In this document: positions 9,749-57,718 of the stretch, in pieces
Layout of the letters: each line of letters begins with the position of its first letter
How positions within the stretch are numbered: the stretch's first letter is position 1
Sequence record: DRR723986_2444
Length of the DNA: 64,000 nt
Direction: 5' to 3' (one strand)
Notes under the pieces: generated by a model
Seen by the model: only the letters and a program-made list of their open reading frames with translations
Database searches by the model: none
Told to the model about the DNA's origin: nothing
Position numbers and translations under genes: made by a program

Positions 9749-9788
9749 AGACATAGTTGCCGTTTCCTTTAATCTTGAGTTGGTGTTT

Positions 9789-9820: not shown

Positions 9821-9832
9821 CAGATAGAAAAC

Positions 9833-11062: not shown

Positions 11063-11089
11063 AAACAGAGACGTGAACTGCTGCGCGCA

Positions 11090-11130: not shown

Positions 11131-11139
11131 GAAAGCAAC

Positions 11140-11322: not shown

Positions 11323-11344
11323 CGGGAAATTAGCCTAAAGGCCT

Positions 11345-11379
11345 TTGATTCTTCGCTCAGTATGGTATTATGCCGCGCG
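11345..11379 (+). promoter_or_regulatory. Putative sigma70 stable-RNA promoter for tRNA-Ser
   Basis: TTGATT, then extended -10 TGgTATTAT, then GC-rich discriminator GCCGCGCG. The -35/-10 spacing is short at 15 nt. Confidence 0.5.
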
Positions 11380-11449
11380 TTTCGTTGCTAACACGCTTTT
11401 GAAAACAAGGCCTTAGCAACGAACCTCCAACAGAAAGTTGGAACAATTC

Positions 11450-11542
11450 GGAGAGGTGGCCGAGTGGCTGAAGGCGCTCCCCTGCTAAGGGAGTATGGGG
11501 TTAATAGCTTCATCGAGGGTTCGAATCCCTCCTTCTCCGCCA
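11450..11542 (+). tRNA. tRNA-Ser (GCT)
   Basis: GGAGAGG acceptor stem, D arm GGCCGAGTGGCTGAAGGC, anticodon loop CTGCTAA, long variable arm, GGTTCGAATCC, encoded 3' CCA. Confidence 0.97.
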
Positions 11543-24160: not shown

Positions 24161-25639
24161 ATGGCGACCTACCTTCTTGCCATTGATCAAGGGACGACCA
24201 GTTCCCGGGCTATTGTTTTTGATAATCGTGGCAAGATCTGCGGTGTTGGGCAGCAAGAGTTTACCCAACATTACCCCAAGGATGGCTGGGTAGAGCACGA
24301 TCCCGAGGAAATCTGGCAAACCACGCTGGCGAGCTGTAAAGCGGCGATCACTGCAGCGGCGATCACGGCTGATCAAATTGCCGGTATTGGTATTACTAAT
24401 CAGCGCGAAACGACGCTGGTATGGGATCGAAAAACGGGTGACCCCGTTTATCCAGCAATCGTTTGGCAGGATCGGCGAACCGCCGACTGGATTTCTCAGC
24501 TTAAGGAGCAGGGCCTAGAGGGAACGGTAAACAAGCGCACAGGCTTGCTGTTAGACCCTTATTTTTCTGGCAGTAAGCTTGCCTGGATACTCGATAATGT
24601 TCCAGGGGCGCGCCAGCGTGCCGACGCCGGCGAGTTGGCCTTTGGCACGGTTGACTGTTATCTGCTGTGGCGTCTGACCGGTGGGCGAGAGCACGCAACC
24701 GATGCCAGCAATGCCTCGCGGACTCTACTTTTTAACATTCATCGTCAGTGCTGGGATGAAGACCTTCTGGAAATGTTCAATATTCCTGCGTCGCTGTTGC
24801 CTGCGGTGAAAAACAGCTGCGACGACTTTGGCTTTGCCGACGCCTCACTGCTCGGCGCTGAACTTCCCATTGCGTCGTTGATCGGTGATCAACAGGCTGC
24901 GACTGTGGGGCAGGCTTGCTTTAAACCGGGTATGGCAAAAAGCACCTATGGCACGGGGTGCTTTGTCATGCTCAATACAGGCAACCGCGCATTAACCTCG
25001 ACAAACCGCCTGCTGACGACGGTGGCATACCGCATTAACAACGAAGTTTGCTATGCCCTCGAAGGCAGTATATTTATGGCTGGCGCGGCAGTGCAGTGGT
25101 TGCGCGACGGCCTGAAATTAATCGGTTCGGCAGCTGAAACCCAGGCGCTTGCTGAGAGCGTTGACAGCGCGAATGGCGTGTTCATGGTGCCGGCATTTAC
25201 CGGGTTGGGCGCACCGTATTGGGACCCCGATGCACGCGGGGCTATTCTCGGACTGACCAGGGACACGGGTATTGCGCATATTGCCAGAGCGACACTCGAG
25301 TCCGTCTGCTATCAAACGCGTGACTTACTCGAGGCAATGGCAGGCGACGGCGCTGATATTCAGCACCTGCGTGTGGATGGCGGCATGGTTGTGAATGATT
25401 GGCTGGTGCAGCGCTTATCCGATACCTTGGCCTGTCATTGCCAGCGCCCTGCCGTGACAGAGACAACCGCCCTCGGCGCGGCATACTTGGCTGGCTTACA
25501 GCTAGGCTTATACGCCTCATTGGATGAAATTGCGGATATGTGGCGCGAGGAACGCAGCTTTATGCCGGCCATGAGCGAGATCGACCGAGAGACTCGTTAT
25601 CACGGTTGGAAGAAAGCCGTCGCTCGGGTTCGCAGTTAA
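24161..25639 (+). CDS. glpK: Glycerol kinase
   Basis: [44 protein letters not shown]. Confidence 0.97.
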
Positions 25640-28428
25640 ACGCGGATACTCAGATCCAAGGCGCTTATCGGCACAGGGCGGCTGATGTAGTAGCCTTGGA
25701 TGTAATCCACTTGCATGCTGCTTAACACGTCCATGGCGGCTTTTTCTTCAACGCCCTCAGCGATGACTTTCTTACCGAGGCTGTGGCTCATTTCGATGAT
25801 GGACCGTACTAGCGCCTGATCGTTTTCCCGCTCATGGATAAAACGAATAAACGCCTGATCAATTTTGATGTAGTCCACCGGCAACTCCCTTACATATTCG
25901 AACGAGGTGAAGCCGACCCCGAAGTCGTCCAGAGCGATTTGTGCACCGCTCGACTTGATCTGCTCGAGCAGGGTGCGAGCATTGTCGATGTTTTCCAGTG
26001 CATCAGTCTCAACGAGCTCGAAAATCACGGCATCAGGTGTGACGCCCGTGTCATCAATAATTTGCGTGAGCCGCTCTGAAAAGTCGGGCTGTTCCAGTGT
26101 TGGCGCCGTTATATTGATGCTCAGTTGAATACTTACCCCCGCTTGTTGCCACGCTGCCAGCTGGCGCAGGGCTTTCTCGATAACCAAGTAGTCGATTTGT
26201 GGCATCAAGCCTGACTCAGTAGCAATGCCCAGGAATTTGGCAGGGGCGATAAAGCTGCCTTCGTCATCGAGCATTCTGACTAAGCTCTCACAATGACTAA
26301 TGCGCTGGCTTTTTAGATCGATGATCGGCTGGTAAAAAAGGACGAGGCGATTATTGTTCAGTGCTTGTACAAGCTGCTCTTTTAGTAAGTATTTTTCCTG
26401 CCGGTTTTCACGGCTGTCCTCTTCATCAGCATAGTAGACATGACCCTTGGCCTTATTTTTCATTCTTTGCATCAAGGACGTGGCATTGGAGAGTAATTCG
26501 TCCACAGTGCAGGCATCGCGTTCGTACTTGTCGACGATGACCGTCGCGTTAATAGACTCGGTATGATTGCCGAGGGTTATTTCAAAGTGACTGATAGCAT
26601 CGAGCTGCTGCGGTGAGGCGGGAGGCTGTGAGGCAAGCAATACACAGTATTCCCCCGATCCGGTGCGCGCTAGCAAGCACGAGTTATCGAGGATCTGACT
26701 AATATGGTTCGCGAATTTGCGTAGTAGGTCGTCACCGCAGTCAAAGCCGAAGCGGTCGTTGAACTCAGAGAAATTGTCGATATCGACCATGATCAGGCTT
26801 ATGGCTTGCTCGTCCTCAAGCAGGTGAATTCGACGGTCGGCCTCTTCAATAAAGGTACTTCGGTTAAGCAGTCCGGTGACTCGGTCGTGTTCGCCTAACC
26901 AGCGCAGGCTTTCCTCGGCACGTCGGGTTTCGGTAATGTCTACGCCCAGAGACAGGATCAGCTTTGTACTGTCTAACTCAACAATTGAGTGAGTCCAAAG
27001 GAAGTCGTGAATTTGCCCATCAGCCGCGAGGAAGGGCAGTTCATTTTGAAATTTCCGCTGATTTTTATCGGCCATATTTCGCAGCGAATTGCTGAGCGTG
27101 ACATCGCGCTCCGGGTCGCGAACCCACTGATTGATATTGGCATTGACGGGTAGGTTGCTATTTAAGCCGCTGAGCATGCGCCCCATCGCGTTTATGTTCT
27201 GAATCGTGCCATCCAAGCGGTGTGTAACGACGACCATCGGCGAGTTTTCCAGCAGCATTTCATTAAACTGCTTGGCTTCTGTTAGGGCGTGAACCTTGTC
27301 TTGAAGTTCATATTGGTGGCGGGCGATATCCTTGTTGAGCAGTTCCAGCGCATCGGTTACCTGTTCTGCCGTGTCGTGTAAGAGGTCAATTTCGTCGGCA
27401 TAGTGGCGATGTCGTGGGACGGTGCTGAGGGCCTTGCGTGCCTCGTCAAATCGCGAGGCAGATAAAAGAGGCAGGGTTTCGGTAATCGTATTGAGCTTGC
27501 TCAGAGGAGGCCGCAGCGTTAAGTAGACGACGATAATAACGAGTACCGACGTGGAGAGGGCGGCAATGAGTATCTCGCGCAGCGTTGCTCTCGCTAGCGA
27601 GGAAATATTTGATTCGTCAGAGATAATGGCCAGATGCAGGTTGCCGTTCGGCATTTCAAAATAGCGTGCCCCAAGGTAGGCACCATTTGTCGACCCAAAG
27701 AATGTGCCCTTCGAAAGGAGGGTTGAGCCGCTCGTTGCCAGTATGCCCGCCAACATCTGGGCGCTTTTGTTGCCGTGACTGGAGAGTAGTGTTTGTTGGG
27801 CGACATCATCGCTTTCTGCCGATGAAAAAATAACCAGTTCGGCGCCAGTAATATCAAAAAAATCTTCAACCAACAGCGAGGCTGAGCGATTGATGTTTAC
27901 AATTAATTCGTTGCCATCATCGTTTATTAGTGGAATAAAAACGCTTTGCGTACAGCTTGGGTTACAGATTATCGAGGCGTGCGGTCGCTGGTTTTCAGTA
28001 ATACTCGCTACCGCGAGCTGAATGTCCTGCTCACTGGGCTGGTAGCTTGTGCCTTCAAGGTGTGCTGAGGCTAAGATGGCCCCGTTTATCGATATGAATA
28101 CCACAGAATCGATGCCCGACATTAACGACGGCGGCGGTACATTGTTGTTGCTAATTGCTTCGATACTGGGGAGCTGGTAGTGATCGGCGCTGCGAAATAG
28201 CTCGCGGCTTGAGCGCTCAACAAGGGTTTTAAAAGTGGATTCCAGCCGCTGCAGGCGCTTGTGCACACCGGCTTCATAGTCATTTAGGGTGTTGTAGTAG
28301 GTGAGCGCCCCCCGACCAAACATGATCAGCGTGATCATAACGAAAATGATGGCGCACAGTTTTTGAAATAGGCTCAGCCCCTTCACAGTCTCCCGCAGTT
28401 GTGCGGAGTGCGGCAGTTTTGAGTTCAT
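25636..28428 (-). CDS. Membrane sensor with PAS, degenerate GGDEF and EAL domains (probable c-di-GMP phosphodiesterase)
   Basis: Two TMs flank a periplasmic domain; PAS region; GGDEF site reads RTGSGEY; EAL domain has FYQPI, CESLVR, DDFGVG, KIDQAFI and IAEGVE. Confidence 0.9.
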
Positions 28429-29561
28429 TAGAAACGGTAGCCGACCATGACCGCAAGCATTTCGGTTCGCTCACGGGTGCCATTTGGGTTGTCTATGTCG
28501 GGAATGCCTCCGGTGCCGCGCATGCCTAACAGGTCGGCAGCAATCGTCCAGTTTCGCGATGGTGACCATTTTGTGCCGACCACGAGGTGTTGTGTATCCG
28601 TCGCGTTGCGGTTATCACGATCGTTCACGCTGTATTCTACGCGGCTATGTAAGCTGATTTTTGGTGAAAGCCGGTATTCAGCCTGAAGGTAGGTCGCTTC
28701 AATATCGTTCTTGGCATTGCCCAAGCGCCCGGCTTCATATTTGACGGTTGTGAGGCTGTATTCCGCAGTAAATGACCAGTCCTGCAGGTTGTGCTGCGCT
28801 GACAGCACGTAACCACTGGCGTAAAGATTTAGACCGTCAGCGCCCATAAAATTGGTGTCGAAGTCTAAGCCAACATTGTACATCGACAGAGCGAAGCGGC
28901 TGCGCCCACCTGACATCGCGTGAGAAAACTGCGCAAAAATGGGGTGATCGAGACTACCCTGTGCAATTAACTGAGAGGTTGATGTGCCGAGCAAGTTCTT
29001 AATAACATCTTTCGACAGGCGTTTATTCCGCCCTGCAGTCAGCGAAAAGCTGGTCGTAGAGTCTTCGGCGTCCCAATAGCTATAGAGTTGAGCGCCATCA
29101 GATGAAAACAACAGCTCTCTTAAGCCGTTGCCCTCGTAGTAGATCGCTTGCGGCATAAGAATGCTGGGCCGGGTAAATAAGACATCCCTTGTTTCATTGT
29201 AAAAACCGTAGGCATTGCGAACGCGTCCCACACGGATGCCCAGTCCGGTGACATCATTTTCTATTGCTTTATAGTCGGCAAAAAGAAAATCCACGCGAAG
29301 GCTGCCGTTGTCGGTGGCGCCGGCATCTCTGCTAAGTAATTGCCCGGCAAAATTGAGAGAGTTGTTAAGCCGCCAATTCGCGTTCAGGCCAATTTCGGTC
29401 AGGTCGGTAGACCCGCGTTGGCTGTCGCCGTAAAAATTGTTGCTGTCACTGAGCAAGTAACCTTGTGACGCAAAGCCGTGAATTTGCCCGCCCGGGATTT
29501 CCAGCGCTTGTGTCGCAGCTGGAATAAGGGCGAGTAGCGAGACAATTGCAAATTTATTCAT
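28428..29561 (-). CDS. Outer-membrane beta-barrel / porin-like protein
   Basis: Signal peptide, IHGFASQGY, alternating beta-strand pattern, terminal VMVGYRF. Confidence 0.8.
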   Translation of the reverse strand: MNKFAIVSLLALIPAATQALEIPGGQIHGFASQGYLLSDSNNFYGDSQRGSTDLTEIGLNANWRLNNSLNFAGQLLSRDAGATDNGSLRVDFLFADYKAIENDVTGLGIRVGRVRNAYGFYNETRDVLFTRPSILMPQAIYYEGNGLRELLFSSDGAQLYSYWDAEDSTTSFSLTAGRNKRLSKDVIKNLLGTSTSQLIAQGSLDHPIFAQFSHAMSGGRSRFALSMYNVGLDFDTNFMGADGLNLYASGYVLSAQHNLQDWSFTAEYSLTTVKYEAGRLGNAKNDIEATYLQAEYRLSPKISLHSRVEYSVNDRDNRNATDTQHLVVGTKWSPSRNWTIAADLLGMRGTGGIPDIDNPNGTRERTEMLAVMVGYRF

Positions 29562-30025
29562 GGCTGTAGTCCGGTGGGCACGATGGCGTAGTACTGCTGC
29601 TTATTTACCGATAATTCGCCAGGCGCATATCCAATGGCACCAGGAGTAGAGGTAACAACCCTCCGCAGCTCCTCAATATCTTTTACTGTGGTTGGCGGTG
29701 TCCCCACGCCGCTGAAAATCACGCGATCCCACTGGTCTCGAAGAACATAGGGGTAGATTTTCAGTACCGTTTTGCAGAAGTTTTTATGCAATGGATGGTT
29801 GTCGGGTAGTACAAAAACCTTGATAGGTGTTTGGTTTTCCCAGCTACGCTTTCGCAAGGAGAATATCGCCCGCAGGGTGCTGGTGTTGAGCTTGTCGACA
29901 TTCACGCTTTCGTGTGCGATGAGCGTGACGGGGGTGCCCGCCGATGAAAAGTTGCAGGCGAGGAAAGACCACAGCAGCAAGGTTGCTACAAGCCAGCGGG
30001 GGCGATTAAGTGACCCTATGCCCAC
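29558..30025 (-). CDS. Small exported PstS/PBP2-like substrate-binding protein
   Basis: Signal-like N-terminus; LRAIFS...W...IKVFVLPD...H..FC...L; VVTSTPGAIGY; GGAGG RBS. Confidence 0.75.
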   Translation of the reverse strand: MGIGSLNRPRWLVATLLLWSFLACNFSSAGTPVTLIAHESVNVDKLNTSTLRAIFSLRKRSWENQTPIKVFVLPDNHPLHKNFCKTVLKIYPYVLRDQWDRVIFSGVGTPPTTVKDIEELRRVVTSTPGAIGYAPGELSVNKQQYYAIVPTGLQP

Positions 30026-30192
30026 AGTGCTGTGGCCTCCGTATTAGTTAGGGTCGATTAAGGAGAGGAATCATCGACCCTTGGCGTCATGCACGAGTAT
30101 TTCGGTTTCGGAGATGGTTACTCATTCTCGCGAGGACGTCTGTTAGGGTAAACCGAAATACACGTCCTTCGTCCACCTACTATAGACCGCAA

Positions 30193-30915
30193 CTACGGTT
30201 GTTGCATGGTGTCTAAGCGCTGGGCCAGCTGTGCATTGAAGCGCATGATTCTCTCGGCGTTCGCGCCGAGATCACCCTTGCCAACGCGTGATACGGAGCG
30301 CAAGTCGATTTTGCTGCCACCCTCGGTTTCTTGCAGCCGGATGACGATGTCGTCGGTAAAGCCAAACCAGAAACTTCGGCTTGTTGCCTCTATGTGGCCG
30401 GGTTGTTGGTAGTGTATTTCCCAGCCCATGTCCTGCGCGGTGATGATGCAGAGCTGCTGAGCGCGATCCAGCGGCAAGGCAGTGGTAATACCTGCGAGAT
30501 CTGGGTAGGCCGCGCGCTGTATGTCAGCGACCTCTTGGGTGTAGCGCAGCGGGTTGTCGCTCGGCTTGCGTAACGACGCTGCTGCAATGAAGCTCGGCGG
30601 TGACACCAGGTCAGTACTGATGTTGTGGATCAGAGGGCGATTACTGCCGGAAAGGATATTGAAGGCCATAAAACTGATGGCGGGTAGCGCGAGAACGGCG
30701 GCGCGGCTAAGCCTTTTTTGATCATTTGCATCTTTGCAGCGACGGCTAAATAGGGCGGATAGTGTGATGGCGCTTAGCGAGAAAAGTGCCGAAGCGGCAA
30801 AAATCAGCAGCCCCACTCTAAAATGGGCGAGGTCGGCGCGCACGGTAACGGCGCTTGCTACCAGCATGATCAGTGATAAATAGGCGAGCCTCTCGGCCAG
30901 ATAGACGATGCGCAT
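30193..30915 (-). CDS. DUF1499 domain membrane protein
   Basis: Three TMs, then IHNISTD, QRAAYPDL, FWFGFTDDIVIR, DLRSVSRVGKGDLGANAERI. Confidence 0.88.
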   Translation of the reverse strand: MRIVYLAERLAYLSLIMLVASAVTVRADLAHFRVGLLIFAASALFSLSAITLSALFSRRCKDANDQKRLSRAAVLALPAISFMAFNILSGSNRPLIHNISTDLVSPPSFIAAASLRKPSDNPLRYTQEVADIQRAAYPDLAGITTALPLDRAQQLCIITAQDMGWEIHYQQPGHIEATSRSFWFGFTDDIVIRLQETEGGSKIDLRSVSRVGKGDLGANAERIMRFNAQLAQRLDTMQQP

Positions 30916-31151
30916 TGTGTCTCCCGTGTCGCAGAATAGGTGGCTAGCACGCTGAGCGTAGTCGATACAAAGGATAATTAAAATGACTTGCAGGCGGTGT
31001 TTTTGCCACTGAATTCTTACCAAAGCGTAATTGCGTCGCGCTATGTTTTTTCACGATAGCGTGATTTACTGTTCTGGTTATAGATGTGTAACTCATCGCC
31101 AGTGGGCCGCTCCACTGGCGAGACTAATTTAAGAAGAAAGAGGTTTTTACG

Positions 31152-45741: not shown

Positions 45742-45778
45742 TTGGCAAGCGCTGCTGATCGACCATTGGTGAATGTAC

Positions 45779-46369
45779 ATGAGCCAAGCTAAACAGGCAG
45801 ACCAGCAGCTCGTTGAGCGAGTCCAGCAGGGGGATAAGCGTGCCTTTGATCTGCTGGTACTTAAGTATCAACACAAAATATTTGGTCTGATATCCCGCTA
45901 TATCAAAGATAGTGACGAAGTGCAGGATGTTGCCCAGGAAGCCTTTGTTAAAGCCTATCGGGCTTTGCCCAAGTTCCGTGGGGACAGTGCCTTTTATACT
46001 TGGTTGTATCGCATTGCGATCAACACGGCGAAAAACTATCTGGTCGCTCGCAACCGTCGCCCGCCGGGCAGTGACGTGGATGTGGCTGATGCCGAATATT
46101 TTGAGGGGCCGTCTGCTTTAAAAGAAGTCGAGACGCCAGAGAACCGCTTGTATGGCGAAGAGCTAAAAAATGTGGTTCAGGACGCGATCAAAACTTTGCC
46201 TGAAGATTTGCGCGCAGCGCTAACTCTGCGTGAATTTGATGGTCTCAGTTATGAGGATATTGCAGCGGTGATGGATTGCCCTGTTGGAACAGTGCGGTCG
46301 CGAATTTTCAGGGCTCGCGAGGCGGTGGATAGTCGAGTAAGAGCCCAAGTGAGTGGCGAAGAGGTGTAA
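45779..46369 (+). CDS. rpoE: RNA polymerase sigma factor RpoE (AlgU)
   Basis: DQQLVERVQQGDKRAFDLLVLKYQ, FYTWLYRIAINTAKN, CPVGTVRSRIFRARE. Confidence 0.98.
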   Translation: MSQAKQADQQLVERVQQGDKRAFDLLVLKYQHKIFGLISRYIKDSDEVQDVAQEAFVKAYRALPKFRGDSAFYTWLYRIAINTAKNYLVARNRRPPGSDVDVADAEYFEGPSALKEVETPENRLYGEELKNVVQDAIKTLPEDLRAALTLREFDGLSYEDIAAVMDCPVGTVRSRIFRAREAVDSRVRAQVSGEEV

Positions 46370-46371
46370 AT

Positions 46372-46950
46372 ATGAAAGATGGCATCAGAGAATCTCTGTC
46401 GGCAATGATGGATGGTGAAGCCAGTGAGCTTGAGTTGCGCCGAGTTCTGCGCTCAGAAGATGCGGCCTTGCGCGCGGAGTGGGCGTCGCTCCACCGCAAT
46501 CAACAGGTGATGCATGACGGCGAGCTGCCGTTTGCCGGTCTCGATATTTCGGGCCGAGTGATGGCCGCGATTGACGATGAGCCAAGTGCAGTGAAACGCG
46601 GCTCGTCCTGGCGTCAAGCGCTAACCGGTATGGCCGTTGCTGCCAGTGTTGCGGCAGTCGTCGTGTTCGCCGGCAGTGAACGTATGCTCGGCGGTGGCAC
46701 CTCAATGCTGGCGGCGTCGGAGACGTCGGTGAGCAGCGGCCGTGTTTACCCCGCTCAAATGTCACCTGCCAATGGCGGTGTTCCTGTAAGTGCCATAGCA
46801 GGGGGCACGCCCAGTATGAGCCCAGCAGTGAAGAGCGAAGCCGACAAGCGTTTCGACGTATTGCTTCGCAAGCATACCGAGCGGGCGTCGCTGAATAATG
46901 GCCAAGGCTTCGTTTCGTATGCGCGGGTGGTGTCTCAGGAGTCAGAATAA
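46372..46950 (+). CDS. rseA: Anti-sigma-E factor RseA/MucA
   Basis: RESLSAMMDGE, single TM (AVAASVAAVVV), position after rpoE. Confidence 0.9.
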   Translation: MKDGIRESLSAMMDGEASELELRRVLRSEDAALRAEWASLHRNQQVMHDGELPFAGLDISGRVMAAIDDEPSAVKRGSSWRQALTGMAVAASVAAVVVFAGSERMLGGGTSMLAASETSVSSGRVYPAQMSPANGGVPVSAIAGGTPSMSPAVKSEADKRFDVLLRKHTERASLNNGQGFVSYARVVSQESE

Positions 46951-47844
46951 GTGCGTTGTCGTGTGATATTGGCGGTCGCTGCGCTGGCGTTTAGTCAAGC
47001 CAGCTGGGCGAATGGTCCGGAAACGTGGCTGAAGCGAATGACTGACAGCCATCGGACCCTCAACTATCAGGGTGTAGTGACTTACCAAGTCGACGACCGA
47101 CTTAGCAGTTTTAAGGTCAGTCATGTTGTCAAAGATGGTCGCGAGTACGAGTCACTCGAAGCGCTAAGTCACGGCGAGCATGAGGTGATTCGTCAGGGGC
47201 ACGATATTAGCTGTGTGCACCCCGGCCCTGAATTATTGCATCTTCTTGCCGGTGACTCGCCAGAAGCGAAGCAATTGCAGAAGCTTTATCATTTGTCCCT
47301 CCGAGAATCGGGCAGCGTTGCTGGTCGCGCGGCAATAGGGTTGTCGATCCAGCCTAAAGACGTATACCGCCTTGGATACCGGCTCGCTCTGGATAAAGAA
47401 ACGGGGTTGTTGTTGCGCTCTGAAATCGTTAATAAGCGCGGCAAGGTGCTTGAGCGCTTTGAGTATGTTGTGCTTGATCTCAGTTTTGATGAGGCAGCGC
47501 TTGAGCGCGATGAGTCACAGCTCATCGCACACCCTCCCGTTGGCGAGCAAGGCAGCGTCCCAGAGGTTAACTGGCGCGTATCCTGGCTGCCTGATGGCTT
47601 TACGCCCTTGGCCGTTCGTGATCAGGCGCCGAGCATCAGTTACACCGACGGTTTGGCGGTATTCACGGTTTTTGTTGAGTCCACCCAGGGTGCCGCGTCG
47701 CAGAGTGATAGCCATATGCGGCGAGGCGCGTCGGTAAGTTACAGCACTACCCACAAATCGCGTGGCGTACGCGTGTCAGTGGTGGGTGAGATTCCCATGC
47801 TGACCGCGAGACAGGTAGCGCTCGGTGTGGAGTGGCCTGAATAA
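46951..47844 (+). CDS. rseB: Sigma-E regulatory protein RseB/MucB
   Basis: LNYQG, LDKETGLLLRSE, WLPDGF, YTDGLAVFTVFVE, VVGEIP. Confidence 0.92.
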   Translation: MRCRVILAVAALAFSQASWANGPETWLKRMTDSHRTLNYQGVVTYQVDDRLSSFKVSHVVKDGREYESLEALSHGEHEVIRQGHDISCVHPGPELLHLLAGDSPEAKQLQKLYHLSLRESGSVAGRAAIGLSIQPKDVYRLGYRLALDKETGLLLRSEIVNKRGKVLERFEYVVLDLSFDEAALERDESQLIAHPPVGEQGSVPEVNWRVSWLPDGFTPLAVRDQAPSISYTDGLAVFTVFVESTQGAASQSDSHMRRGASVSYSTTHKSRGVRVSVVGEIPMLTARQVALGVEWPE

Positions 47845-48323
47845 TGATTTGTGAGCGCGGGCGTGTTGTTGCTGTGGAGACGTCGGCTCTGTGGGTAGAG
47901 ACCGTGTCCCAAAGTAGCTGCGCCAGCTGCTCTGCGAAGAAAGGTTGCGGGCAGGGGCTGATGAACAGTTTGCACGATGGTCGCCGCAATCAGTTGCGTA
48001 TCGCGCTAAACGGGCTCCCCGCGAGTGACTACCCCGTGGGTAGCGATGTGGATATCGCCATTCCCGAAGCAGCGTTAGTGGGTGGTGCGTTTATTGTCTA
48101 CCTGCTGCCTTTGCTGAGTATGATCCTCGGTATGCTTGCTGGGAATAGTTTGTCGGGCAGTGAGAGCGTTGCTGCAGTGTCGGCACTGGTGGGATTTTTG
48201 CTGGGGCTGGGCGGTGTACGGGCCCACGCACTATTGAGCCGAAACAGCGAGCGTTTTCAGCCCCGTTTAGTCGGGCATCATGGCCGAGCGTCCGCCGAGC
48301 CACTGCAGTTTTTCGAGCATTAA
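47844..48323 (+). CDS. rseC: RseC/MucC family protein
   Basis: SCASCSAKKGCG, YLLPL, two TMs. Confidence 0.9.
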   Translation: MICERGRVVAVETSALWVETVSQSSCASCSAKKGCGQGLMNSLHDGRRNQLRIALNGLPASDYPVGSDVDIAIPEAALVGGAFIVYLLPLLSMILGMLAGNSLSGSESVAAVSALVGFLLGLGGVRAHALLSRNSERFQPRLVGHHGRASAEPLQFFEH

Positions 48324-48433
48324 TAGGCATTTAGCCGCCTCCTGTGACAATACACATAGCTTAGGTAGCGGGCTTTGCGATACAATCGCGCCTTTATTTT
48401 CCTCAATGGCTTTGTCCCGGGGTTCTGCCAAAC

Positions 48434-50233
48434 GTGCCTAGTCTCGACCTAATTCGTAACTTTTCTATTATTGCCCATATCGACCACGGAAAATCGACCC
48501 TGGCGGATCGTTTTATCCAGTATTGTGGTGGCCTTGCTGACCGTGAAATGGCCGAGCAAGTGCTCGACTCAATGGATATTGAGCGAGAGCGGGGTATCAC
48601 TATCAAAGCGCAGAGCGTGACGCTCGATTACACCGCGAAGGATGGGAATACCTATCAGCTCAATTTTATCGACACCCCCGGACATGTTGACTTCTCCTAC
48701 GAGGTATCGCGCTCGTTAGCGGCATGTGAAGGCGCGCTCTTGGTGGTGGACGCCGCGCAGGGTGTTGAGGCGCAGTCGGTGGCAAATTGCTATACCGCGA
48801 TAGAGCAGGGGCTCGAAGTACTGCCAATTTTGAACAAAATGGATCTTCCACAGGCCGACCCTGACCGGGTAAAACAGGAAATCGAAGAAATTATCGGCGT
48901 GGATGCCAGCGAGGCAGTGCCGGTCAGTGCGAAATCCGGAATGGGCATAGAGGATGCCTTAGAGCACTTAGTTGCCGCCATTCCCGCGCCCGAGGGGGAC
49001 CCTGATGCCCCCTTGCAAGCCCTGATCATCGATTCCTGGTTCGACAACTACCAAGGGGTTGTCTCCTTGGTGCGAGTGAAGAACGGCACCCTGCGTAAAG
49101 GCGATAAGGTCATCAGTAAGTCGCTGGGTAAAACGCATTCCGTGGATGTCGTAGGGATATTCACGCCCAAGCAAACCAATACCGGTGTGCTCAAAGCCGG
49201 TGAAGTTGGCTTCCTTATCGCCGGCATTAAAGATATTCACGGCGCGCCAGTGGGGGATACCTTCACGCACGCCAGTACACCTGATGTGGACGCGCTGCCC
49301 GGTTTTCAGAAAGTAAAGCCGCAGGTCTATGCCGGGATGTTCACGGTATCTACCGAAGACTACGAAGACTTTCGGGAGGCCTTAGGGAAGCTGACATTAA
49401 ATGATGCTTCTTTGTTTTACGAGCCTGAAACATCAGATGCCCTGGGTTTTGGTTTTCGCTGCGGCTTCCTCGGCACGCTGCATATGGAGATCATTCAAGA
49501 GCGCCTGGAGCGTGAATACGATATTGATCTGATAACGACAGCGCCCACCGTAATTTATCAAGTGCTCAAGAAAAACGGCGAAGAGGTTATGGTTGATAAC
49601 CCTTCCGCAATGCCTGACCCCGGCGAAGTTGAGGAAACCCGCGAACCGATCGCCAGGGTGAATATCTTGGTCCCGCAGGAACACCTCGGCAATGTGATGA
49701 GCCTGTGTTCGGAGAAGCGCGGCGTTCAGATTGATATGCAGTTTTTGGGGCAGCAAGTATCGCTGACATGGGACATCCCAATGAGCGAAGTGGTGCTGGA
49801 CTTCTTCGACCGGTTGAAGTCGGTGAGCCGTGGCTTTGCCTCGCTTGACTACAGTTTTGAACGCTTCGAAGCGGCGAACCTGGTCAAGCTCGATGTGCTG
49901 ATAAATGGTGACCGTGTTGATGCGCTGGCGATGATTGTCCATCGCGATTTCGCGCAGTCCCGCGGGCGGCTGTTAGTGGAAAAGATGAAAGAGCTTATTC
50001 CACGACAGATGTTTGACGTGGCAATTCAGGCGGCAATTGGTGGGCATGTTATTGCGCGCCAGACGGTAAAGGCGCTGCGTAAGAACGTAACTGCCAAGTG
50101 TTATGGTGGCGACGTATCGCGAAAGCGTAAACTGCTTGAGAAGCAAAAAGCAGGTAAAAAGCGGATGAAGCAAGTTGGGAATGTAGAGATTCCGCAGTCG
50201 GCATTTCTTGCCGTCTTAAAGGTAGATGGATAA
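48434..50233 (+). CDS. lepA: Translation elongation factor 4
   Basis: [45 protein letters not shown]. Confidence 0.99.
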
Positions 50234-50248
50234 GGGGTATATGGCCAC

Positions 50249-51304
50249 ATGGTTAATTTGATCTTACTGTTCGTCGCGGCGACGTCGCTGTGTGTGTGGC
50301 TACTTCAGGAAATCAAAGGGCGTCGGCAGATGCAAACCGCATTGCAGTGGTGTGCCGAGAAAAAAACCGCTAGCGATGCGGTGGCCCTGCGCCGTCAGGT
50401 TGTGCCCGCTTGGGTCGAGTGGAGCTATCGGTTGGTATCGGCACTGTGGCTGCTCTGGGTTGCCAGTGTTGTGCTGATTAAAGATGGCGATTTTGCACTG
50501 GCCCTGGTGGTGCTCACCGCGCTGGCAGGAGTGATTGCTGGCCTTGATCGCTTTGTTTTTGAAAAGGGCCGTCAGGCCTATGTTAACGCCGGCAAAATCG
50601 CCGTTTACATTACCTACTTTGTTAAGCAGGAGCAGGAGAACCTAAAGCGGGAATTTGGCGGGATGTTGCCGATCGCCGAGAATGCGCGGTCATTTTTCCC
50701 CGTGCTGCTCGTGGTATTGGTATTGCGCTCGTTTGTCGTTGAGCCGTTTCAAATTCCCTCCGCGTCGATGGTTCCCAGTCTCGAAGTTGGCGATTACATC
50801 CTGGTCAATAAGTTTAACTATGGGTTGCGCCTGCCGGTTGTCGGTACAAAAATTTTAGAAGTGGGCGAGCCCGAGCGCGGCGATGTTATGGTTTTCTTCC
50901 CTCCTGGTGATAGCCGCTACTTTATCAAGCGCGTCGTGGGTTTGCCTGGCGATAAACTGCGTTATGTTAATAAAAAGCTCTATGTGAATGACGAGTTAGT
51001 GCCCCATACCCTGGTGGCTGAAGTTCCGCCCTTGCAGCCTGTTACCCAGGTGGTTCGCGAGCAGCTCGGTAGTGTAGAGCACCTGATTCATCACGATAAA
51101 CGCATTTATCGCGGTGATTTTGAAACAACGGTAAAACCCGGTCATTACTTTATGATGGGTGATAATCGCGACAACAGCAGTGATAGCCGAGTTTGGGGAC
51201 AGGTTCCTGAGAAGAATATCGTCGGTCAGGCGTTTGCAATCTGGATGCACTGGCAATCCTTCTCTCAGCTACCCAGCTTTGATCGCGTTGGCCAAATACG
51301 TTAA
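50249..51304 (+). CDS. lepB: Signal peptidase I with an extended N-terminal membrane region
   Basis: EPFQIPSASMVP (catalytic Ser), YFIKRVVGLPGD (catalytic Lys), MMGDNRDNSSDSR. Confidence 0.96.
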   Translation: MVNLILLFVAATSLCVWLLQEIKGRRQMQTALQWCAEKKTASDAVALRRQVVPAWVEWSYRLVSALWLLWVASVVLIKDGDFALALVVLTALAGVIAGLDRFVFEKGRQAYVNAGKIAVYITYFVKQEQENLKREFGGMLPIAENARSFFPVLLVVLVLRSFVVEPFQIPSASMVPSLEVGDYILVNKFNYGLRLPVVGTKILEVGEPERGDVMVFFPPGDSRYFIKRVVGLPGDKLRYVNKKLYVNDELVPHTLVAEVPPLQPVTQVVREQLGSVEHLIHHDKRIYRGDFETTVKPGHYFMMGDNRDNSSDSRVWGQVPEKNIVGQAFAIWMHWQSFSQLPSFDRVGQIR

Positions 51305-51323
51305 CGGTGCACAGGAGATAATA

Positions 51324-51689
51324 ATGAAAAATCAGCAGGGCATTGGCCTACTATCCTTTGTCATCATCGTCGGTGTTGCCATGGTTTTGGGAACGATGGC
51401 AATTCGTCTCGCCCCCTTATACGTTGATTACTGGTCGCTCAGTCGTGTTATCAGTGACGTGGCCGAAGAGAGTAAAGGTGCCGAAGTGACGCCTGCACAG
51501 ATTCGTCAAAAGCTGTCGCGCAGGTTTATTACAAACCGGATCGAATCGATATCTTTGCGCGATATTAAGATCAAAAATAACGACGAGGGTGTGCTGATTG
51601 ATGCCACCTACGAGAAACGCGTGCCGCTATTCATCAATATTGACGCTGTCGTTAAGTTTGAAGACGCGCTTTTTCAGGTTGAACGCTAA
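51324..51689 (+). CDS. DUF4845 family protein
   Basis: Pilin-like N-terminus MKNQQGIG followed by a TM; YEKRVPLFINIDAVVKF; usual position between lepB and rnc. Confidence 0.85.
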   Translation: MKNQQGIGLLSFVIIVGVAMVLGTMAIRLAPLYVDYWSLSRVISDVAEESKGAEVTPAQIRQKLSRRFITNRIESISLRDIKIKNNDEGVLIDATYEKRVPLFINIDAVVKFEDALFQVER

Positions 51690-51694
51690 CTGGT

Positions 51695-52363
51695 ATGCCG
51701 ACACTTTCCGATGTGCTGGGATACGCTTTTAATGACGACGCCTTGTTAACGCAGGCGCTGACTCACCGAAGCCTCAGCGCTGATCACAACGAGCGACTGG
51801 AGTTTCTTGGCGATTCGTTGCTGAATATGATCGTTAGTGATTTTTTGTACCGTCGTTTTCCAAATTTGGATGAGGGCGAGTTGAGTAGAATTCGCGCCTC
51901 GTTAGTGAGTGGAAAGGCCCTGGCGGCTGTCGCTGCTGAACTGAATCTCGGAGAGCACCTTCTGTTGGGAAGCGGCGAGCGCAACAGCGGCGGTAAGCGG
52001 CGCAGCTCCATCCTTGCGGATACTGTTGAGGCCATTCTCGGTGCGATCTATCTCGATGGGGGCATGGCGTCGTGTCAGGCCTGTGTCCATCGTTGGTTTG
52101 CCGGCCGACTGGAGAGTATTGATCCCACCGCGAGTCACAAAGACGCTAAAACGCGGCTACAAGAATATTTGCAGGCGAGAAAGCAGCCCTTGCCGCAATA
52201 CCGCCTCTGCTCGACAGAGGGTAAGTCTCATCAGCAGGCCTTTACTGTCGCATGTAAGGTAACGCTGCTGAACGGGGAAGTTGTGGCAACGGCAAGTAGT
52301 CGACGCAAGGCAGAGCAAGCTGCAGCAGAGCAAGTGCTGGCGCGGCTGGAGAAGCAAGCATGA
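51695..52363 (+). CDS. rnc: Ribonuclease III
   Basis: [16 protein letters not shown], ds[12 protein letters not shown]. Confidence 0.98.
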
Positions 52364-53271
52364 AACACCAGAATGAGAGCGGCACACGCTGTGGTTATGT
52401 GGCAATTGTTGGCCGCCCGAATGTGGGTAAATCCACGCTACTTAACCATATTCTCGGTCAAAAACTGAGTATCACGTCAAGAAAGCCCCAAACGACGCGC
52501 CACCAGCTGCTGGGGATTAAAACTGAGGGTGATACGCAGGCGATCTATGTCGACACCCCCGGTCTGCATTTGCGCGACGAAAAGGCGATTAATCGCTACA
52601 TGAATCGGGCTGCCAGCTCTGCTCTGAAAGATGTTGATCTGGTGCTTTTTCTGGTAGATCGCGATCGCTGGACCGATGAAGACGACCTTGTTTTAGAGAA
52701 AGTGAAGCAGGTCGACTGCCCGGTCTTGCTGGTGGTAAACAAGATCGATCGGCTTAACGACAAATCGGAATTACTGCCACTGCTGGAACAGCTTGCCGAG
52801 AAGCACAGTTTTACGGAAATTGTGCCTGTCTCGGCATTGCGCGGCCACAACCGCGATGATCTTGAGGCCGTTATTGAACGCTACCTTCCAGAGGGGATAC
52901 ACCTCTTCCCTGAGGATCAGGTAACCGATCGCAGTGAGCGTTTTCTTGCGGCAGAGCTTGTTCGTGAAAAGATTATGCGTCAGCTGGGGGAGGAAGTGCC
53001 CTATGCGATGACGGTCGAAATTGAGGAATTCAAGGTATCGCCGCGCCTGATAGAGATCAGCGCACTGATACTGGTAGAGCGCCAAGGGCAAAAGAAAATA
53101 CTGATCGGTGAGAAGGGGAGTCGTCTCAGGCAGATTGGTACAGAGGCGCGCAAGGATATGGAGCGCGCGTTCGACAGCAAGGTCATGTTGCGCTTATGGG
53201 TGAAAGTGAAATCTGGCTGGTCCGACGATGAGCGCGCCCTACGCAGCCTCGGTTATAACGATTTCGAGTAG
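52360..53271 (+). CDS. era: GTPase Era
   Basis: [20 protein letters not shown] domain, [12 protein letters not shown]. Confidence 0.98.
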
Positions 53272-53274
53272 ACC

Positions 53275-53982
53275 ATGAGTGCGCGTATAGAGGGGCAGCC
53301 CGCATACGTGTTACATCTTCGCGCCTATCGTGATAGCAGTGCGATCATCGATCTATTCAGCCGCGACTATGGCTATCTAAGCGTCGTAGCCAAGGGACTT
53401 AAATCGTCGAGCAAGAGCCGCCAGCAATGGCGCGCGGCCTTGCAGCCTGGCAATCTTATTCAGGTCTCCTGGCAGGGGCGCAGTGAGTTAAAGACCTTAG
53501 TTGATGCGCAGCTGAACAGCACGTTTCCACTGCGCGGCAACGCGCTGTACTGCGCTTTCTACATCAACGAGTTATTGGGAAGATTGCTGCAACCTTTTGA
53601 CCCCCAGGCGGAAGTTTTCAAGTTGTACGGCCGCTCTTTGCTGGAGCTGTCCTCAGGGAGCCATGTTGAACCCATACTGCGCAGCTTTGAGCTAACTTTA
53701 CTTACCGAGCTGGGCTACGGTGTCGACTTCTCGCCCATTGAAAGCGCCCCCGAGGCCTATTTTATCTACGACCCGGAGCACGGCTTTTGCCAGGTATCGG
53801 CGTCGATGGACCCTCACCAGAAAGCGTTTTCCGGCCATCTATTGCAGCAGTTAGCGCGTGCCGATTGGGACGCCGACACGCTTAAAGTAGCGAAGCGCCT
53901 CAACCGGCTTATCCTTGCGCCCCTGTTGGGGGACCGGCCACTGAACAGTCGAAAACTGTTTCTCCGGCAGTACTCGGACTAA
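53275..53982 (+). CDS. recO: DNA repair protein RecO
   Basis: AYVLHLRAYRDSS, FYINELL, FELTLLTELGYG, RPLNSR; follows era. Confidence 0.95.
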   Translation: MSARIEGQPAYVLHLRAYRDSSAIIDLFSRDYGYLSVVAKGLKSSSKSRQQWRAALQPGNLIQVSWQGRSELKTLVDAQLNSTFPLRGNALYCAFYINELLGRLLQPFDPQAEVFKLYGRSLLELSSGSHVEPILRSFELTLLTELGYGVDFSPIESAPEAYFIYDPEHGFCQVSASMDPHQKAFSGHLLQQLARADWDADTLKVAKRLNRLILAPLLGDRPLNSRKLFLRQYSD

Positions 53983-53995: not shown

Positions 53996-56675
53996 TTAGT
54001 CGAATAGGGCATCCAGCTCGTGTTCTTCGCGCCATGCCAGCAATTCGTCTATTCGCGTAATCACTGCGGTGAAGAGCGGTTGCTGAGGTGGCTTCTGGGC
54101 AGATAAATCGGCCTCCAATTCACAGACGGCTTGCTTGAGAAGTGGGACGCCGGTGTAGCAACAATTCCCTTTCAAACCGTGATTGAGTTCGGTCAGCGTA
54201 TCCCACTCCTTGCTATCGAAGGCCTGTGTGAGCTGACTACGCAAACCTGGCAGTTCATCGAGCAGCATTGAGAGCATGTTTTTTGCCAGCGTAGGGCGCT
54301 GTTTGGACAGTGATAAGCACTGTTTAAGGTCCACGGGCCTGGATTGCTCCTCGGCGTCGGCGTCTGCCTCAGGCGCGTGTGCGTCGGTTGGCGGCAGGTC
54401 ACAGGAAGGGGCCAGGTAGTGTTGCAAAATATTGGTGAGCTGCTGCTCATTTACCGGTTTGCTAAGGTATTTATCGATGCCGGCATCGCGCAGCTGTGAG
54501 GGGTTTTCCGGTGCGAGGTAGGCCGACAGCGCCACAATTGGGGTGTGTTGGTTCTTTCCGCGCTGGCGTATCTGGCGGCTTGCGGCAATGCCGTCCAGCT
54601 GTGGCATCTGGATGTCGATAAATATCAAGTCGAAACACTGCTCCTGGCAATGGCTGACTGCTTCCACGCCATTTTGAGCGCTGACGGGGCTGATGCCGGC
54701 ATCTTCCAGAAAGGTGGAGAGTATGAGCAGGTTAGACGGGTTGTCATCAACGATGAGCACTTGGCTATTGCGAAAATGTCGGTTGTTGAGTTGGTTATCA
54801 TCGCTCAGGCCCGTATTCAGCGCGTCAAAAAGACGAACATGAGAAACCGGCTTGCTGAGCCAGACATTATTGTCTTGTGGGTGTTCCTCGCTGTGGTAGC
54901 TCAAAACCACGCAGGCGCCGTCGCGATGAATCGTGGGTAGCGGTTGGCAGCTCTCCTCTGCATCCAAGCTCAGAATGCAGTGATCTGCCTGGGTATTAAT
55001 ATCATCAATTCCCTGGCAGAGCTGCACGTTCATGCCCCAGCCTTCGAGCAGGTCGCAAATGGCGAGGCCGTATAATGGGCTGCTGTCATACAAGGCAACT
55101 GTACTACCCTGTAGGGATTGGAAGTCACGCATTTGCATCGCATTGTGATCAATTGCCAAGCGCAGACTAAACCAAAAGGTAGAGCCGTGTCCGAGCTCGC
55201 TTTCTACGCCGATTTCGCCGCCCATCTCCTTAACCAGGCCTTGAACAATGACTAGTCCCAGCCCGGTGCCGCCATATTGACGAGTGACAGATGCATCGCC
55301 TTGGCCAAAGTCTCGGAAGATATGCTTGCGCTGCTCTGCGCTCATACCAATGCCGCTGTCAGTGACCTTGAAGGTCAGTGTTGCGTAATCGTCGTCCCGC
55401 TCGCTACAGGAGATATCGACGCGAACGGTTCCGGTTGGGGTGAATTTAATCGCATTGCTAACTAAGTTCGTCAGCATTTGCCGGAGTCGGAGGGAGTCGC
55501 TGAGGATTGCCTCAGGGGTGTCTTTCTCGACAAACAGTGCAAGGTCGAGACGCTTCTCCGCTGCGCCGGGAGCGAGCATGATCAAGGTATCTTCAGCAAG
55601 TTCGCGGAGTTGCACTGGGGCTTTATCGAACACCAGCTTCCCAGCCTCAAGCTTGGAGAAGTCGAGAATATCGTTGATGATGGTGAGTAGGTTAACGGCG
55701 CTGTTGCGGATGGTCTCTACCGCTTCGCGCTGTCGCCCGCGAATATCCGCCTTGAGAAGAATATTACTGAAACCCAGAATACTGTTCAGAGGTGTGCGAA
55801 TTTCATGGCTGGTATTGGCGAGAAATTCCGATTTAACTCGGCTTGCAGTGACGGCTTCGCGCCTAGCTAGGTCAAGCTCGATATTCTGTATTTCAAGCGT
55901 TTCTAAGGTTTCACGTAAGTCGCTGTTGGACTGTTCGAGGTTGAGTTGCAGCTCCTTTAGCTCCCTTACCTGCGCCGCGTTCAGTTCATTGAGATCCTCG
56001 GCTAGCTCACTGAATTCGTCGCCACCGGGAACATGAATGTGCAAGTCTCTCTGGCCGCTGGTGAGTTGCCATCCGCAGAATTTGTAAGTCGCGGCCGATG
56101 TTGTGATTGATATAACTAAAAAACAAGATACAAACGAGGACGCTGAGGCCCAGGAAAATCGCCGCGGCGAGGTAGCTCTGGTACTTCATTAGCTCGTATT
56201 GGTGCCAGCCATAGCTCATTTGCACCCAGCCGAGGTGGCCATCTGCATCGGTCTGATGGCCCTCTGCAGATAGCGGTGCATGAATCGCCCACGTAATTTG
56301 GAGATCATCGGCTTGATCCATGACCTTAAAGGGCATAAACCGGCTCAATCCCTCGACATTGGGCGGTGGCGTTCCGGGGCCTGCGTGCGAGATGAGTTCG
56401 AGGTCGCTATTGTAGATACTCACCGCGCGTACACCGGGCTCCTCAAGCGCCGTATGTAGAATATAGGCCAGCGTATCTTCGTGGTGGTCCTGCATCATAT
56501 GGCTAGAGACAACACTCAGCTGCTGGGCGGCGGATTTGGCACGCTGAGTAAGCAGCTCTCTGCTGTCTGCCAGTTGCTGTTGAGTCAGGTAGGCACTGAA
56601 ACCCACCGAAATGAGAAGTACGGGCAGTAGCCCCATGATCAAGATAAGCCGTTTAAATCCGTATCGCCTGCGCAT
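53996..56675 (-). pseudogene. gacS: Hybrid sensor kinase GacS/BarA, frameshifted near 56061-56068
   Basis: ORF 56007-56675 encodes TM-periplasmic-TM. ORF 53996-56044 encodes the HAMP end, ETLEIQNIELDLARRE, H-box ANTSHEIRTPLN, GGTGLGL, receiver FIDIQMP and Hpt HGLKG. The 2680-bp span is not a multiple of 3. Position next to cysM-relA is as expected. Confidence 0.9.
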
Positions 56676-56830: not shown

Positions 56831-57718
56831 ATGACAGATTTTCCTACCATTGAGCAATGTATTGGCAATACACCCCTAGTGAGGTTGCAACGCCTTAATC
56901 GCGACAGCAGTAATACGATTTTGCTGAAGCTAGAGGGAAATAACCCCGCTGGTTCCGTTAAAGACCGTCCGGCTATGAGTATGATAGCGCGCGCGGAGGC
57001 TCGGGGCGATATACAACCTGGTGACACGCTTATTGAAGCGACGAGCGGTAACACGGGGATCGCGCTGGCGATGGCCGCTGCCATTCGCGGCTATAAGATG
57101 GTGCTGATCATGCCAAGCCATATGAGTAGTGAGCGCAAATTGGCAATGTCTGCCTATGGCGCCACCCTTGTGGAGGTGAGTCAAGAAGAGGGAATGGAAG
57201 GGGCGCGAGACTTGGCCCTAGCGATGCAGGCAAGAGGCGAGGGAAAGGTACTGGATCAATTTGCAAACCCCGATAACCCCCTGGCTCACTATGAGGGAAC
57301 TGGCCCTGAGATCTGGCGTCAGACCGATGGACGTATTACCCACTTTGTCAGCTCGATGGGAACCACCGGTACCATTATGGGCGTCTCCCGGTTCCTTAAA
57401 GAGCAAAACCCCAGTGTGCAGATCGTTGGACTGCAGCCTGAAGATGGCTCTAGCATTCCTGGTATTCGTCGCTGGCCTGAGGCTTACCTGCCGAAAATAT
57501 ATCAGGCCCCAAGGGTCGACCAGGTGATGGATATTGATCAGCAACTGGCTGAAAAAACCATGCGAGCACTTGCTGAGCAGGAAGGGATATTTTGTGGTGT
57601 GTCCTCCGGTGGTGCGGTCGCCGGAGCGCTTCGTCTTAGCGAGCAGGTGGAAAACGCCGTAATTGTTGCCATTATTTGTGACCGCGGTGACCGATATTTG
57701 TCCACCGGCGTTTTCTAG
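56831..57718 (+). CDS. cysM: Cysteine synthase B
   Basis: KLEGNNPAGSVKDR, EATSGNTG, SSMGTTGT, ICDRGDRYLSTGVF. Confidence 0.96.
   Translation: MTDFPTIEQCIGNTPLVRLQRLNRDSSNTILLKLEGNNPAGSVKDRPAMSMIARAEARGDIQPGDTLIEATSGNTGIALAMAAAIRGYKMVLIMPSHMSSERKLAMSAYGATLVEVSQEEGMEGARDLALAMQARGEGKVLDQFANPDNPLAHYEGTGPEIWRQTDGRITHFVSSMGTTGTIMGVSRFLKEQNPSVQIVGLQPEDGSSIPGIRRWPEAYLPKIYQAPRVDQVMDIDQQLAEKTMRALAEQEGIFCGVSSGGAVAGALRLSEQVENAVIVAIICDRGDRYLSTGVF

What the first reader, a model, noticed from the sequence alone, without database searches (positions are those of the whole stretch)
53996..56675. gacS/barA frameshift that re-duplicating one 8-bp unit repairs exactly (candidate slipped-strand switch)
Seen: the gene spans 2680 bp and is split into two frames. 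On the minus strand the junction reads ctg cgg atg g-CAACTCAC-cagcggccagagagacttg; the unit is GTGAGTTG at 56061-56068 on the plus strand. Adding a second CAACTCAC gives atg gca act cac caa ctc acc agc ggc cag, i.e. DLQILRMATHQLTSGQRDLHIHV, and an 896-codon frame. That peptide fits the HAMP first-helix register, with L2, L5, A8, L12 and G15. Established: spontaneous gacS/gacA loss-of-function mutants are common in cultured gammaproteobacteria, and GacS acts through Csr/Rsm sRNAs on CsrA, which is encoded in this window. Inference: the ancestral allele carried an exact or near-exact tandem 8-mer that collapsed. This could be a domestication mutation, a reversible phase switch or an assembly error. 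Any restart at TTG 56044 would give a sensor-less cytoplasmic kinase.
Basis: partly seen in the sequence, partly recalled or inferred. Interest (0 to 1): 0.75.

Follow-up and report, generated by a model that had tools for sequence, protein, structure and literature searches.

The report
Eight-base deletion breaks gacS/barA sensor gene
A marine Spongiibacter strain carries a global-regulator sensor kinase gene (gacS/barA) broken by an 8-base deletion between two short direct repeats, which is an ordinary, probably recent, loss-of-function mutation and not a built-in genetic switch.

Summary
The minus-strand gene at 53996..56675 is a barA/gacS-type hybrid sensor kinase split into two frames.

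Two close relatives carry an intact 2688-nt, 895-codon gene: Spongiibacter marinus DSM 17750 (L001) and Neomelitea salexigens DSM 19753 (L002).

The intact allele reads ATGGCAACTCACCGCCTCACCAGC (MATHRLTS, not MATHQLTS). It is a 6-nt direct repeat, CTCACC, at period 8, and one copy plus the 2-nt spacer is gone.

- **Real, not an artefact:** this is the only indel in 10,685 aligned bases against L001, at 98.7% identity. No other split gene appeared among 51 further ORFs.
- **Recent:** the window lineage shows 11 synonymous and 2 non-synonymous changes in the gene.
- **Not a switch:** the repeat is one of 14 such chance repeats in the gene. A synonymous change breaks it in L002. Only one copy remains, so a dedicated reversible switch is unsupported.

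Best reading: a real, one-way, slippage or microhomology deletion giving a gacS loss-of-function allele. This kind of mutant is well known in pseudomonads. Reads could not be checked.

The parts
56007..56675 (-). gacS/barA 5' part: 205 native codons (TM1, periplasmic sCache_4, TM2, start of HAMP helix 1), then 17 out-of-frame codons and a stop
   Evidence: ORF list. Pfam sCache_4, E 2.9e-6. The first 205 residues are identical to P0001.
53996..56185 (-). gacS/barA 3' frame, open stop-to-stop: rest of HAMP, HisKA, HATPase_c, receiver, Hpt
   Evidence: Stop-to-stop ORF. Pfam HisKA, HATPase_c, Response_reg and Hpt. Collinear with P0001 from residue 207 onward.
56060..56065 (-). The single surviving CTCACC copy, which is the deletion junction. 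In the intact allele a second copy follows after a 2-nt spacer. The 8-nt deletion can be placed in 7 equivalent ways across this hexamer.
   Evidence: Alignment A1. Placement enumeration.
56042..56044 (-). TTG, the only canonical start codon in the 3' frame upstream of the H-box. A product from here would lack both TM helices and HAMP helix 1.
   Evidence: Scan of C-frame starts over the first 600 nt: 56044, then 55633 and 55615, which lie beyond the H-box. Anti-SD pairing is -3.6 kcal/mol, against -2.4 for the native start.
53275..53982 (+). recO, convergent neighbour
   Evidence: NCBIfam TIGR00613, E 2.2e-26
56831..57718 (+). cysM, divergent neighbour, followed by relA and mazG
   Evidence: NCBIfam NF008735, 549 bits. 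relA NF008124 and mazG NF007113.
11140..11322 (+). csrA, the downstream target of the Gac/Csr pathway as established for other gammaproteobacteria
   Evidence: Motif scan. Pfam CsrA, E 5.5e-25.

Best explanation
The window comes from a strain about 98.7% identical to Spongiibacter marinus DSM 17750. Its gacS/barA gene has lost 8 nt by replication slippage or microhomology-mediated deletion between two copies of CTCACC that lie 8 nt apart in the intact allele.

The loss shifts the frame after His205, in the first helix of the HAMP domain. The sensor half (two TM helices plus the periplasmic sCache domain) ends after 17 wrong residues. The kinase, receiver and Hpt half is left without its own start.

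The expected result is loss of GacS signalling to GacA and hence to Csr/Rsm sRNAs and CsrA. That step is inferred from the pathway as known in other gammaproteobacteria and is not shown here.

The event is recent and essentially one-way. It is the familiar class of spontaneous gacS mutant, not a dedicated switch.
For: Derived state. Three distinct intact alleles keep the longer sequence: P0001, L001 and L002. P0001 and L001 differ at 3 of 895 residues, and L002 is 93.2% identical in DNA. All 10 relatives that span the site in alignment A2 show no gap there, so the window state is derived.

Slippage signature. One repeat copy plus the spacer is deleted, one copy is retained, and there are 7 equivalent junction placements. 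Among the 14 close repeats in the gene, this pair has the shortest period.

Not general assembly noise. This is the only gap in 10,685 aligned bases against L001, alongside 131 mismatches. The site is not a homopolymer. Of 51 other ORFs scanned, 38 matched NCBIfam families, many end to end (alaS 2-847/847, lepA 3-595/595, relA 1-742/744). No neighbouring pair hit consecutive parts of one family.

Recent. No second lesion is present, since both pieces stay open. Of the 15 nt differences to L001 in the gene, 13 arose on the window lineage: 11 synonymous and 2 non-synonymous.

Precedent. PMC4004566 (passages read) states that spontaneous gacS/gacA mutations are the main cause of phenotypic variation in many pseudomonads. 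It describes gacS deletions between short direct repeats in strains CHA and PCL1171.
Against: No reads were available, so an assembly or consensus error cannot be excluded.

Loss of function is inferred, not measured. TTG 56044 could in principle start a soluble kinase. Its Shine-Dalgarno pairing (-3.6 kcal/mol) is no worse than that of the native start (-2.4).

Whether Spongiibacter has a GacA/Csr-sRNA cascade was not tested. Rfam at gathering thresholds found only a tRNA in the window.

Whether the mutation arose in nature or in culture cannot be told.
Confidence: 0.8

Rival explanations
1. Assembly or sequencing artefact: the strain really has the intact 2688-nt gene, and the 8-nt gap was introduced during consensus calling across the short repeat.
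For: Reads were not available, and the gap lies at a short direct repeat. The truncated 222-aa product was not found as a separate protein in the protein collection: 0 identical hits, with 2 of 263 candidates passing E<=1e-10, both from other species.
Against: An 8-nt loss at a non-homopolymer site is not a typical platform error. It is the sole indel in 10,685 bases against the nearest relative. No other split gene was seen among the 51 other ORFs scanned.
Confidence: 0.08
2. Reversible slipped-strand phase switch: the population toggles between 2-copy (ON) and 1-copy (OFF) states of the 8-nt period repeat as bet-hedging on Gac-controlled traits.
For: The lesion is a clean loss of one repeat period. 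Spontaneous and reversible gacS mutations are reported for Pseudomonas sp. PCL1171, as summarised in PMC4004566 (passage read). The primary paper, PMC543552, is not held.
Against: The ON allele has only two units, 6 of 8 identical, and the OFF allele has a single copy with no template for re-expansion. The repeat is not conserved: L002 has a synonymous CTC-to-CTG change in the second copy, and more distant orthologues encode other residues there. Such repeats occur 14 times in the gene against 8.8 +/- 3.0 in shuffles. All three other alleles seen are ON.
Confidence: 0.05
3. Change of function rather than a null: translation restarts at TTG 56044 and yields a soluble kinase, receiver and Hpt protein lacking the sensor and HAMP helix 1. 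This protein signals independently of input.
For: TTG 56044 is the only canonical in-frame start upstream of the H-box, and its SD pairing is comparable to the native start. The whole 3' frame is intact. [quoted passage not shown]
Against: The TTG lies inside the still-translated 5' ORF, which stops only at 56007. It has a weak SD at poor spacing. The product would keep half a HAMP domain, and the same review says HAMP is responsible for GacS dimerisation. There is no expression evidence.
Confidence: 0.07

Closest known systems
Spontaneous gacS/gacA loss-of-function mutants of Pseudomonas (e.g. PCL1171 colony variants; the P. aeruginosa CHA 426-bp gacS deletion between 11-nt imperfect repeats)
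   Same: The same gene family is hit. The mechanism class is the same: deletion between short direct repeats, producing a truncated sensor kinase (PMC4004566, passages read).
   Different: The host is a marine Spongiibacter. The deletion is only 8 nt and lies in HAMP helix 1, not the 3' Hpt end. No phenotype or reversibility data exist.
BarA (E. coli) / GacS (Pseudomonas) unorthodox hybrid sensor kinases
   Same: The domain order is TM, sCache_4, TM, HAMP, HisKA, HATPase_c, receiver, Hpt. BarA equivalog NF008318 is the best NCBIfam match, nearly end to end. The best solved-structure match is 7z8n_A, E 8e-94, over residues 209-509. The table calls it only 'Histidine kinase'; that it is P. aeruginosa GacS is my recollection. 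The neighbourhood cysM-relA-mazG resembles that of gacS/barA in Pseudomonas and E. coli, which is also recalled.
   Different: The score of 683 bits is below the curated cut-off of 890, so this is a diverged orthologue. Here the gene is interrupted.
Simple-sequence contingency loci (slipped-strand phase variation)
   Same: The frame changes by loss of one period of a short direct repeat.
   Different: There is no multi-copy tract, the units are imperfect, the repeat is not conserved in the sister species, and the OFF state retains one copy only.

Membership tests
BarA/GacS unorthodox hybrid sensor kinase | Domain order: TM, periplasmic sensor, TM, HAMP, HisKA, HATPase_c, receiver, Hpt | tested here: met
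   All domains are found, split over two frames in the window and contiguous in the 99%-identical P0001. HAMP scores 22.6 bits in P0001, just under the Pfam cut-off of 25, and 25.0 bits in orthologue P0006.
BarA/GacS unorthodox hybrid sensor kinase | Passes the curated equivalog model for BarA | tested here: inconclusive
   NF008318 is the top hit, E 5.3e-205, covering profile 3-890/920. Its 683.3 bits fall below the cut-off of 890. The next best, LetS, scores 464.8.
BarA/GacS unorthodox hybrid sensor kinase | Signals to GacA/UvrY and Csr/Rsm sRNAs that sequester CsrA | not testable with these tools
   csrA is present. No Csr/Rsm sRNA family reached the gathering score in the window. gacA was not sought, because the genome outside the window was not available.
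Deletion by slippage between short direct repeats | The deleted segment equals one repeat copy plus the spacer, and one copy is retained at the junction | tested here: met
   The intact allele has CTCACC twice at period 8 and the window has it once. There are 7 equivalent 8-nt placements.
Deletion by slippage between short direct repeats | The longer allele is ancestral | tested here: met
   L001, L002 and P0001 carry the long allele, and all 10 relatives spanning the site in A2 are ungapped there.
Phase-variable contingency locus | Tract of several identical tandem units prone to both gain and loss | tested here: not met
   The ancestor has two units, 6 of 8 identical, and the window has one copy. 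The count of close repeats in the gene is near the shuffled expectation.
Phase-variable contingency locus | The repeat is maintained across related lineages | tested here: not met
   L002 has a synonymous change that breaks the second copy. More distant orthologues encode RRLIN, HRLIS, RRLSS or RRLAN at the site.
Phase-variable contingency locus | Both length states coexist within populations or cultures | not testable with these tools
   No reads were available. No separate truncated product was found in the protein collection.

The most novel reading that the evidence does not exclude
The CTCACC period-8 repeat in HAMP helix 1 of S. marinus gacS is a recurrent hotspot. Its collapse, and rare re-duplication or restart at TTG 56044, gives a marine heterotroph a heritable, occasionally reversible toggle between Gac-ON, Gac-OFF and perhaps signal-independent kinase states. 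That would be bet-hedging on the Csr regulon outside the pseudomonads.
Probability: 0.05. Interest if true: 0.55.

Novelty: new member of a known kind. Interest (0 to 1): 0.2.

Why it matters
Anyone using this strain or genome should know that its global Gac/Csr regulator is very probably off. Traits under Csr control (secondary metabolism, biofilm, motility, carbon storage in other gammaproteobacteria) may then differ from wild Spongiibacter, and the gene may be mis-annotated as two genes.

The case also extends the well-known tendency of gacS to be lost spontaneously to a marine Spongiibacteraceae lineage. It does not reveal a new mechanism.

Tried and rejected
**Cluster members of P0001.** I tried to list the 45 member sequences, looking for other truncated alleles.

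**Truncated product elsewhere.** I searched the protein collection with the 222-aa 5' product. Only two short relatives from other species came back, and no copy of the truncated allele.

**Primary PCL1171 paper.** PMC543552 is not held. I relied on its summary in PMC4004566.

**Spongiibacter plus gacS in print.** Three papers hold both words. By title and abstract start, none concerns Spongiibacter GacS. P. chlororaphis HT66 (PMC5924801, passages read) proved irrelevant, because its variant has no gacS mutation.

**Programmed frameshifting or transcriptional slippage.** I considered and rejected this by inspection. There is no homopolymer or slippery heptamer at the site, and a +1 shift would give a protein three residues short in a segment that is ungapped in all 10 relatives.

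**Compensating -1 slip in the T6 run at 56118..56123.** I considered this. It would restore a long ORF but would scramble about 19 residues at the TM2/HAMP junction (read; not tested further).

**Csr/Rsm sRNAs.** Rfam at gathering threshold found none in the window.

Full report
**What is there.** On the minus strand, 53996..56675 holds one gene in two frames. The 5' ORF (56007..56675, 222 aa) carries a periplasmic sCache_4 domain between two hydrophobic segments. The 3' frame is open from 56185 to the stop at 53996. It carries HisKA, HATPase_c, a receiver and an Hpt domain. The two frames overlap over 56007..56185, so the lesion must lie in those 179 nt.

**Identity of the gene.** A search of the protein collection with the 3' frame listed the best 120 of 8000 scored candidates. 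The top hit, P0001, is an 895-aa protein with 96% identity over 98% of the query. The shortfall comes from the out-of-frame leader. The next best hit is 72% identical. P0001 matches the NCBIfam BarA equivalog NF008318 almost end to end (profile 3-890/920, 683 bits, below the curated 890), well ahead of LetS at 465 bits. Pfam places a HAMP domain at residues 190-233 (22.6 bits, cut-off 25). The best solved-structure match is 7z8n_A over residues 209-509 (E 8e-94). The neighbours are recO (convergent) and cysM, relA and mazG (divergent side). I recall, but did not test, that gacS/barA sits near cysM and relA-mazG in Pseudomonas and E. coli. csrA is present at 11140..11322.

**The lesion.** A scan of one genome per species matched 19 stretches; 3 of them encode a relative, and they make 2 loci. 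These are L001, Spongiibacter marinus DSM 17750, and L002, Neomelitea salexigens DSM 19753. Both carry an uninterrupted 895-codon gene.

- In the DNA alignment the window has a single 8-column gap and is otherwise collinear.
- The gene is 2680 nt in the window and 2688 nt in both relatives.
- The intact allele in L001 reads ATGGCAACTCACCGCCTCACCAGC (M A T H R L T S). The window reads ATGGCAACTCACCAGC.
- The intact allele thus has the hexamer CTCACC twice, 8 nt apart. The window has it once, at 56060..56065.
- Because of the repeat, the 8-nt deletion can be drawn in 7 equivalent positions. This is the signature of replication slippage or microhomology-mediated deletion.

The frame shifts after His205. 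The 5' product carries 17 wrong residues and stops at 56007.

The size (+8), the place and the resulting length (896 codons with the stop) are exactly right. So is the heptad register, because the restored segment has the same length as in all relatives. The inserted letters are not right. The residue is Arg206, not Gln.

**Direction and age.** Three different intact alleles keep the long form: P0001, L001 and L002. P0001 and L001 differ at 3 of 895 residues. All 10 relatives that span the site in alignment A2 are ungapped from the end of TM2 through HAMP. These are 9 full-length proteins plus the partial P0003. The short form is therefore derived. Within the gene the window differs from L001 at 15 nt, 1 upstream and 14 downstream of the deletion. 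With L002 as outgroup, 13 of these arose on the window lineage, 11 synonymous and 2 non-synonymous. There is no second disabling change. The gene was under purifying selection until very recently.

**Real or artefact.** Against L001 the window is 98.70% identical over 10,685 bases, with 131 mismatches and one gap opening of 8 positions, which is this one. Against L002 it is 93.2% identical with 4 gap openings totalling 11 positions. Of 51 other ORFs of at least 90 codons scanned against NCBIfam, 38 matched a family. Many matched end to end, including alaS, lepA, relA, nadB and glpK, and no adjacent pair looked like halves of one gene. The site is not a homopolymer. An assembly error is therefore unlikely, though reads were not available.

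**Switch or accident.** The intact gene contains 14 direct repeats of at least 6 nt at periods 6-20. Ten of them have periods that would shift the frame. Codon shuffles give 8.8 +/- 3.0 (200 shuffles). The CTCACC pair is one of these, and its only distinction is having the shortest period. In L002 a synonymous CTC-to-CTG change already breaks the second copy. More distant orthologues encode different residues there. After the collapse a single copy remains, so nothing templates a precise re-expansion. None of the defining features of a contingency locus that could be tested is met.

The literature supports the ordinary reading. PMC4004566 (passages read) states that spontaneous gacS/gacA mutations are the most important mechanism of phenotypic variation in many pseudomonads. 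It describes a 426-bp gacS deletion between 11-nt imperfect repeats in strain CHA, and a 307-bp deletion between 10-bp direct repeats in PCL1171. It says the PCL1171 mutations are spontaneous and reversible. The primary paper could not be read.

**Consequence (inferred).** The break separates sensor from kinase within HAMP helix 1. The review PMC7695008 (passages read) describes HAMP as transmitting the periplasmic signal to the kinase and as responsible for dimerisation. It also says that deleting HAMP gives signal-independent activation. TTG 56044 is the only canonical start in the 3' frame upstream of the H-box. The next starts, 55633 and 55615, lie beyond it. Its anti-SD pairing of -3.6 kcal/mol is weak but no weaker than the native start at -2.4. 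A soluble, possibly deregulated kinase therefore cannot be excluded. The TTG lies inside the still-translated 5' ORF, and there is no expression evidence. The default expectation is loss of GacS function.

**What stayed unchecked.**
- Raw reads.
- Members of the P0001 cluster.
- Environmental contig collections, which were closed.
- The rest of the genome, including gacA and the Csr sRNAs. Rfam found only a tRNA in the window.
- No copy of the truncated 222-aa product was found elsewhere: 2 of 263 candidates passed E<=1e-10, and both are shorter relatives from other species.

**Verdict.** This is a real-looking, recent, one-way 8-nt deletion between short direct repeats that inactivates gacS/barA in a Spongiibacter marinus-like strain. 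It is a new instance of a well-known kind of mutation and of low general interest, but it is relevant to anyone working with this strain.

Noticed in passing
proteins P0121 (147 aa) and P0003 (740 aa), both labelled 'Spongiibacter sp. TaxID 2024860': P0121 ends near residue 150 of the gacS alignment and P0003 begins near residue 157. They could be the two pieces of a second, independently interrupted gacS in another Spongiibacter genome. They could equally be contig-edge fragments from different genomes.
   Followed up: partly
window 53996..54400 (gacS codons 768-791): All 4 non-synonymous differences between the window and S. marinus DSM 17750 in this gene fall within 24 codons of the linker between the receiver and Hpt domains. 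Two arose on each lineage.
   Followed up: partly
window 7091..11539: alaS, aspartate kinase and csrA are followed by a tRNA gene at 11450..11539. No Csr/Rsm sRNA family was detected anywhere in the window.
   Followed up: partly
window 45773..53982: An uninterrupted housekeeping run, rpoE-rseA-rseB-rseC-lepA-lepB-rnc-era-recO, leads up to the 3' end of gacS. All matched their NCBIfam models over most of their length.
   Followed up: no
window 25636..31023 (minus strand): A 930-aa c-di-GMP phosphodiesterase/diguanylate cyclase-type protein is followed by three ORFs (377, 155 and 276 aa) with no NCBIfam match at E<=1e-8.
   Followed up: no
window 1081..2145: A 354-aa ORF has only weak, sub-threshold similarity to a His-Xaa-Ser repeat protein (HxsA, E 2.8e-10, 40.5 bits against a cut-off of 121.65) at its C-terminus.
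   Followed up: no
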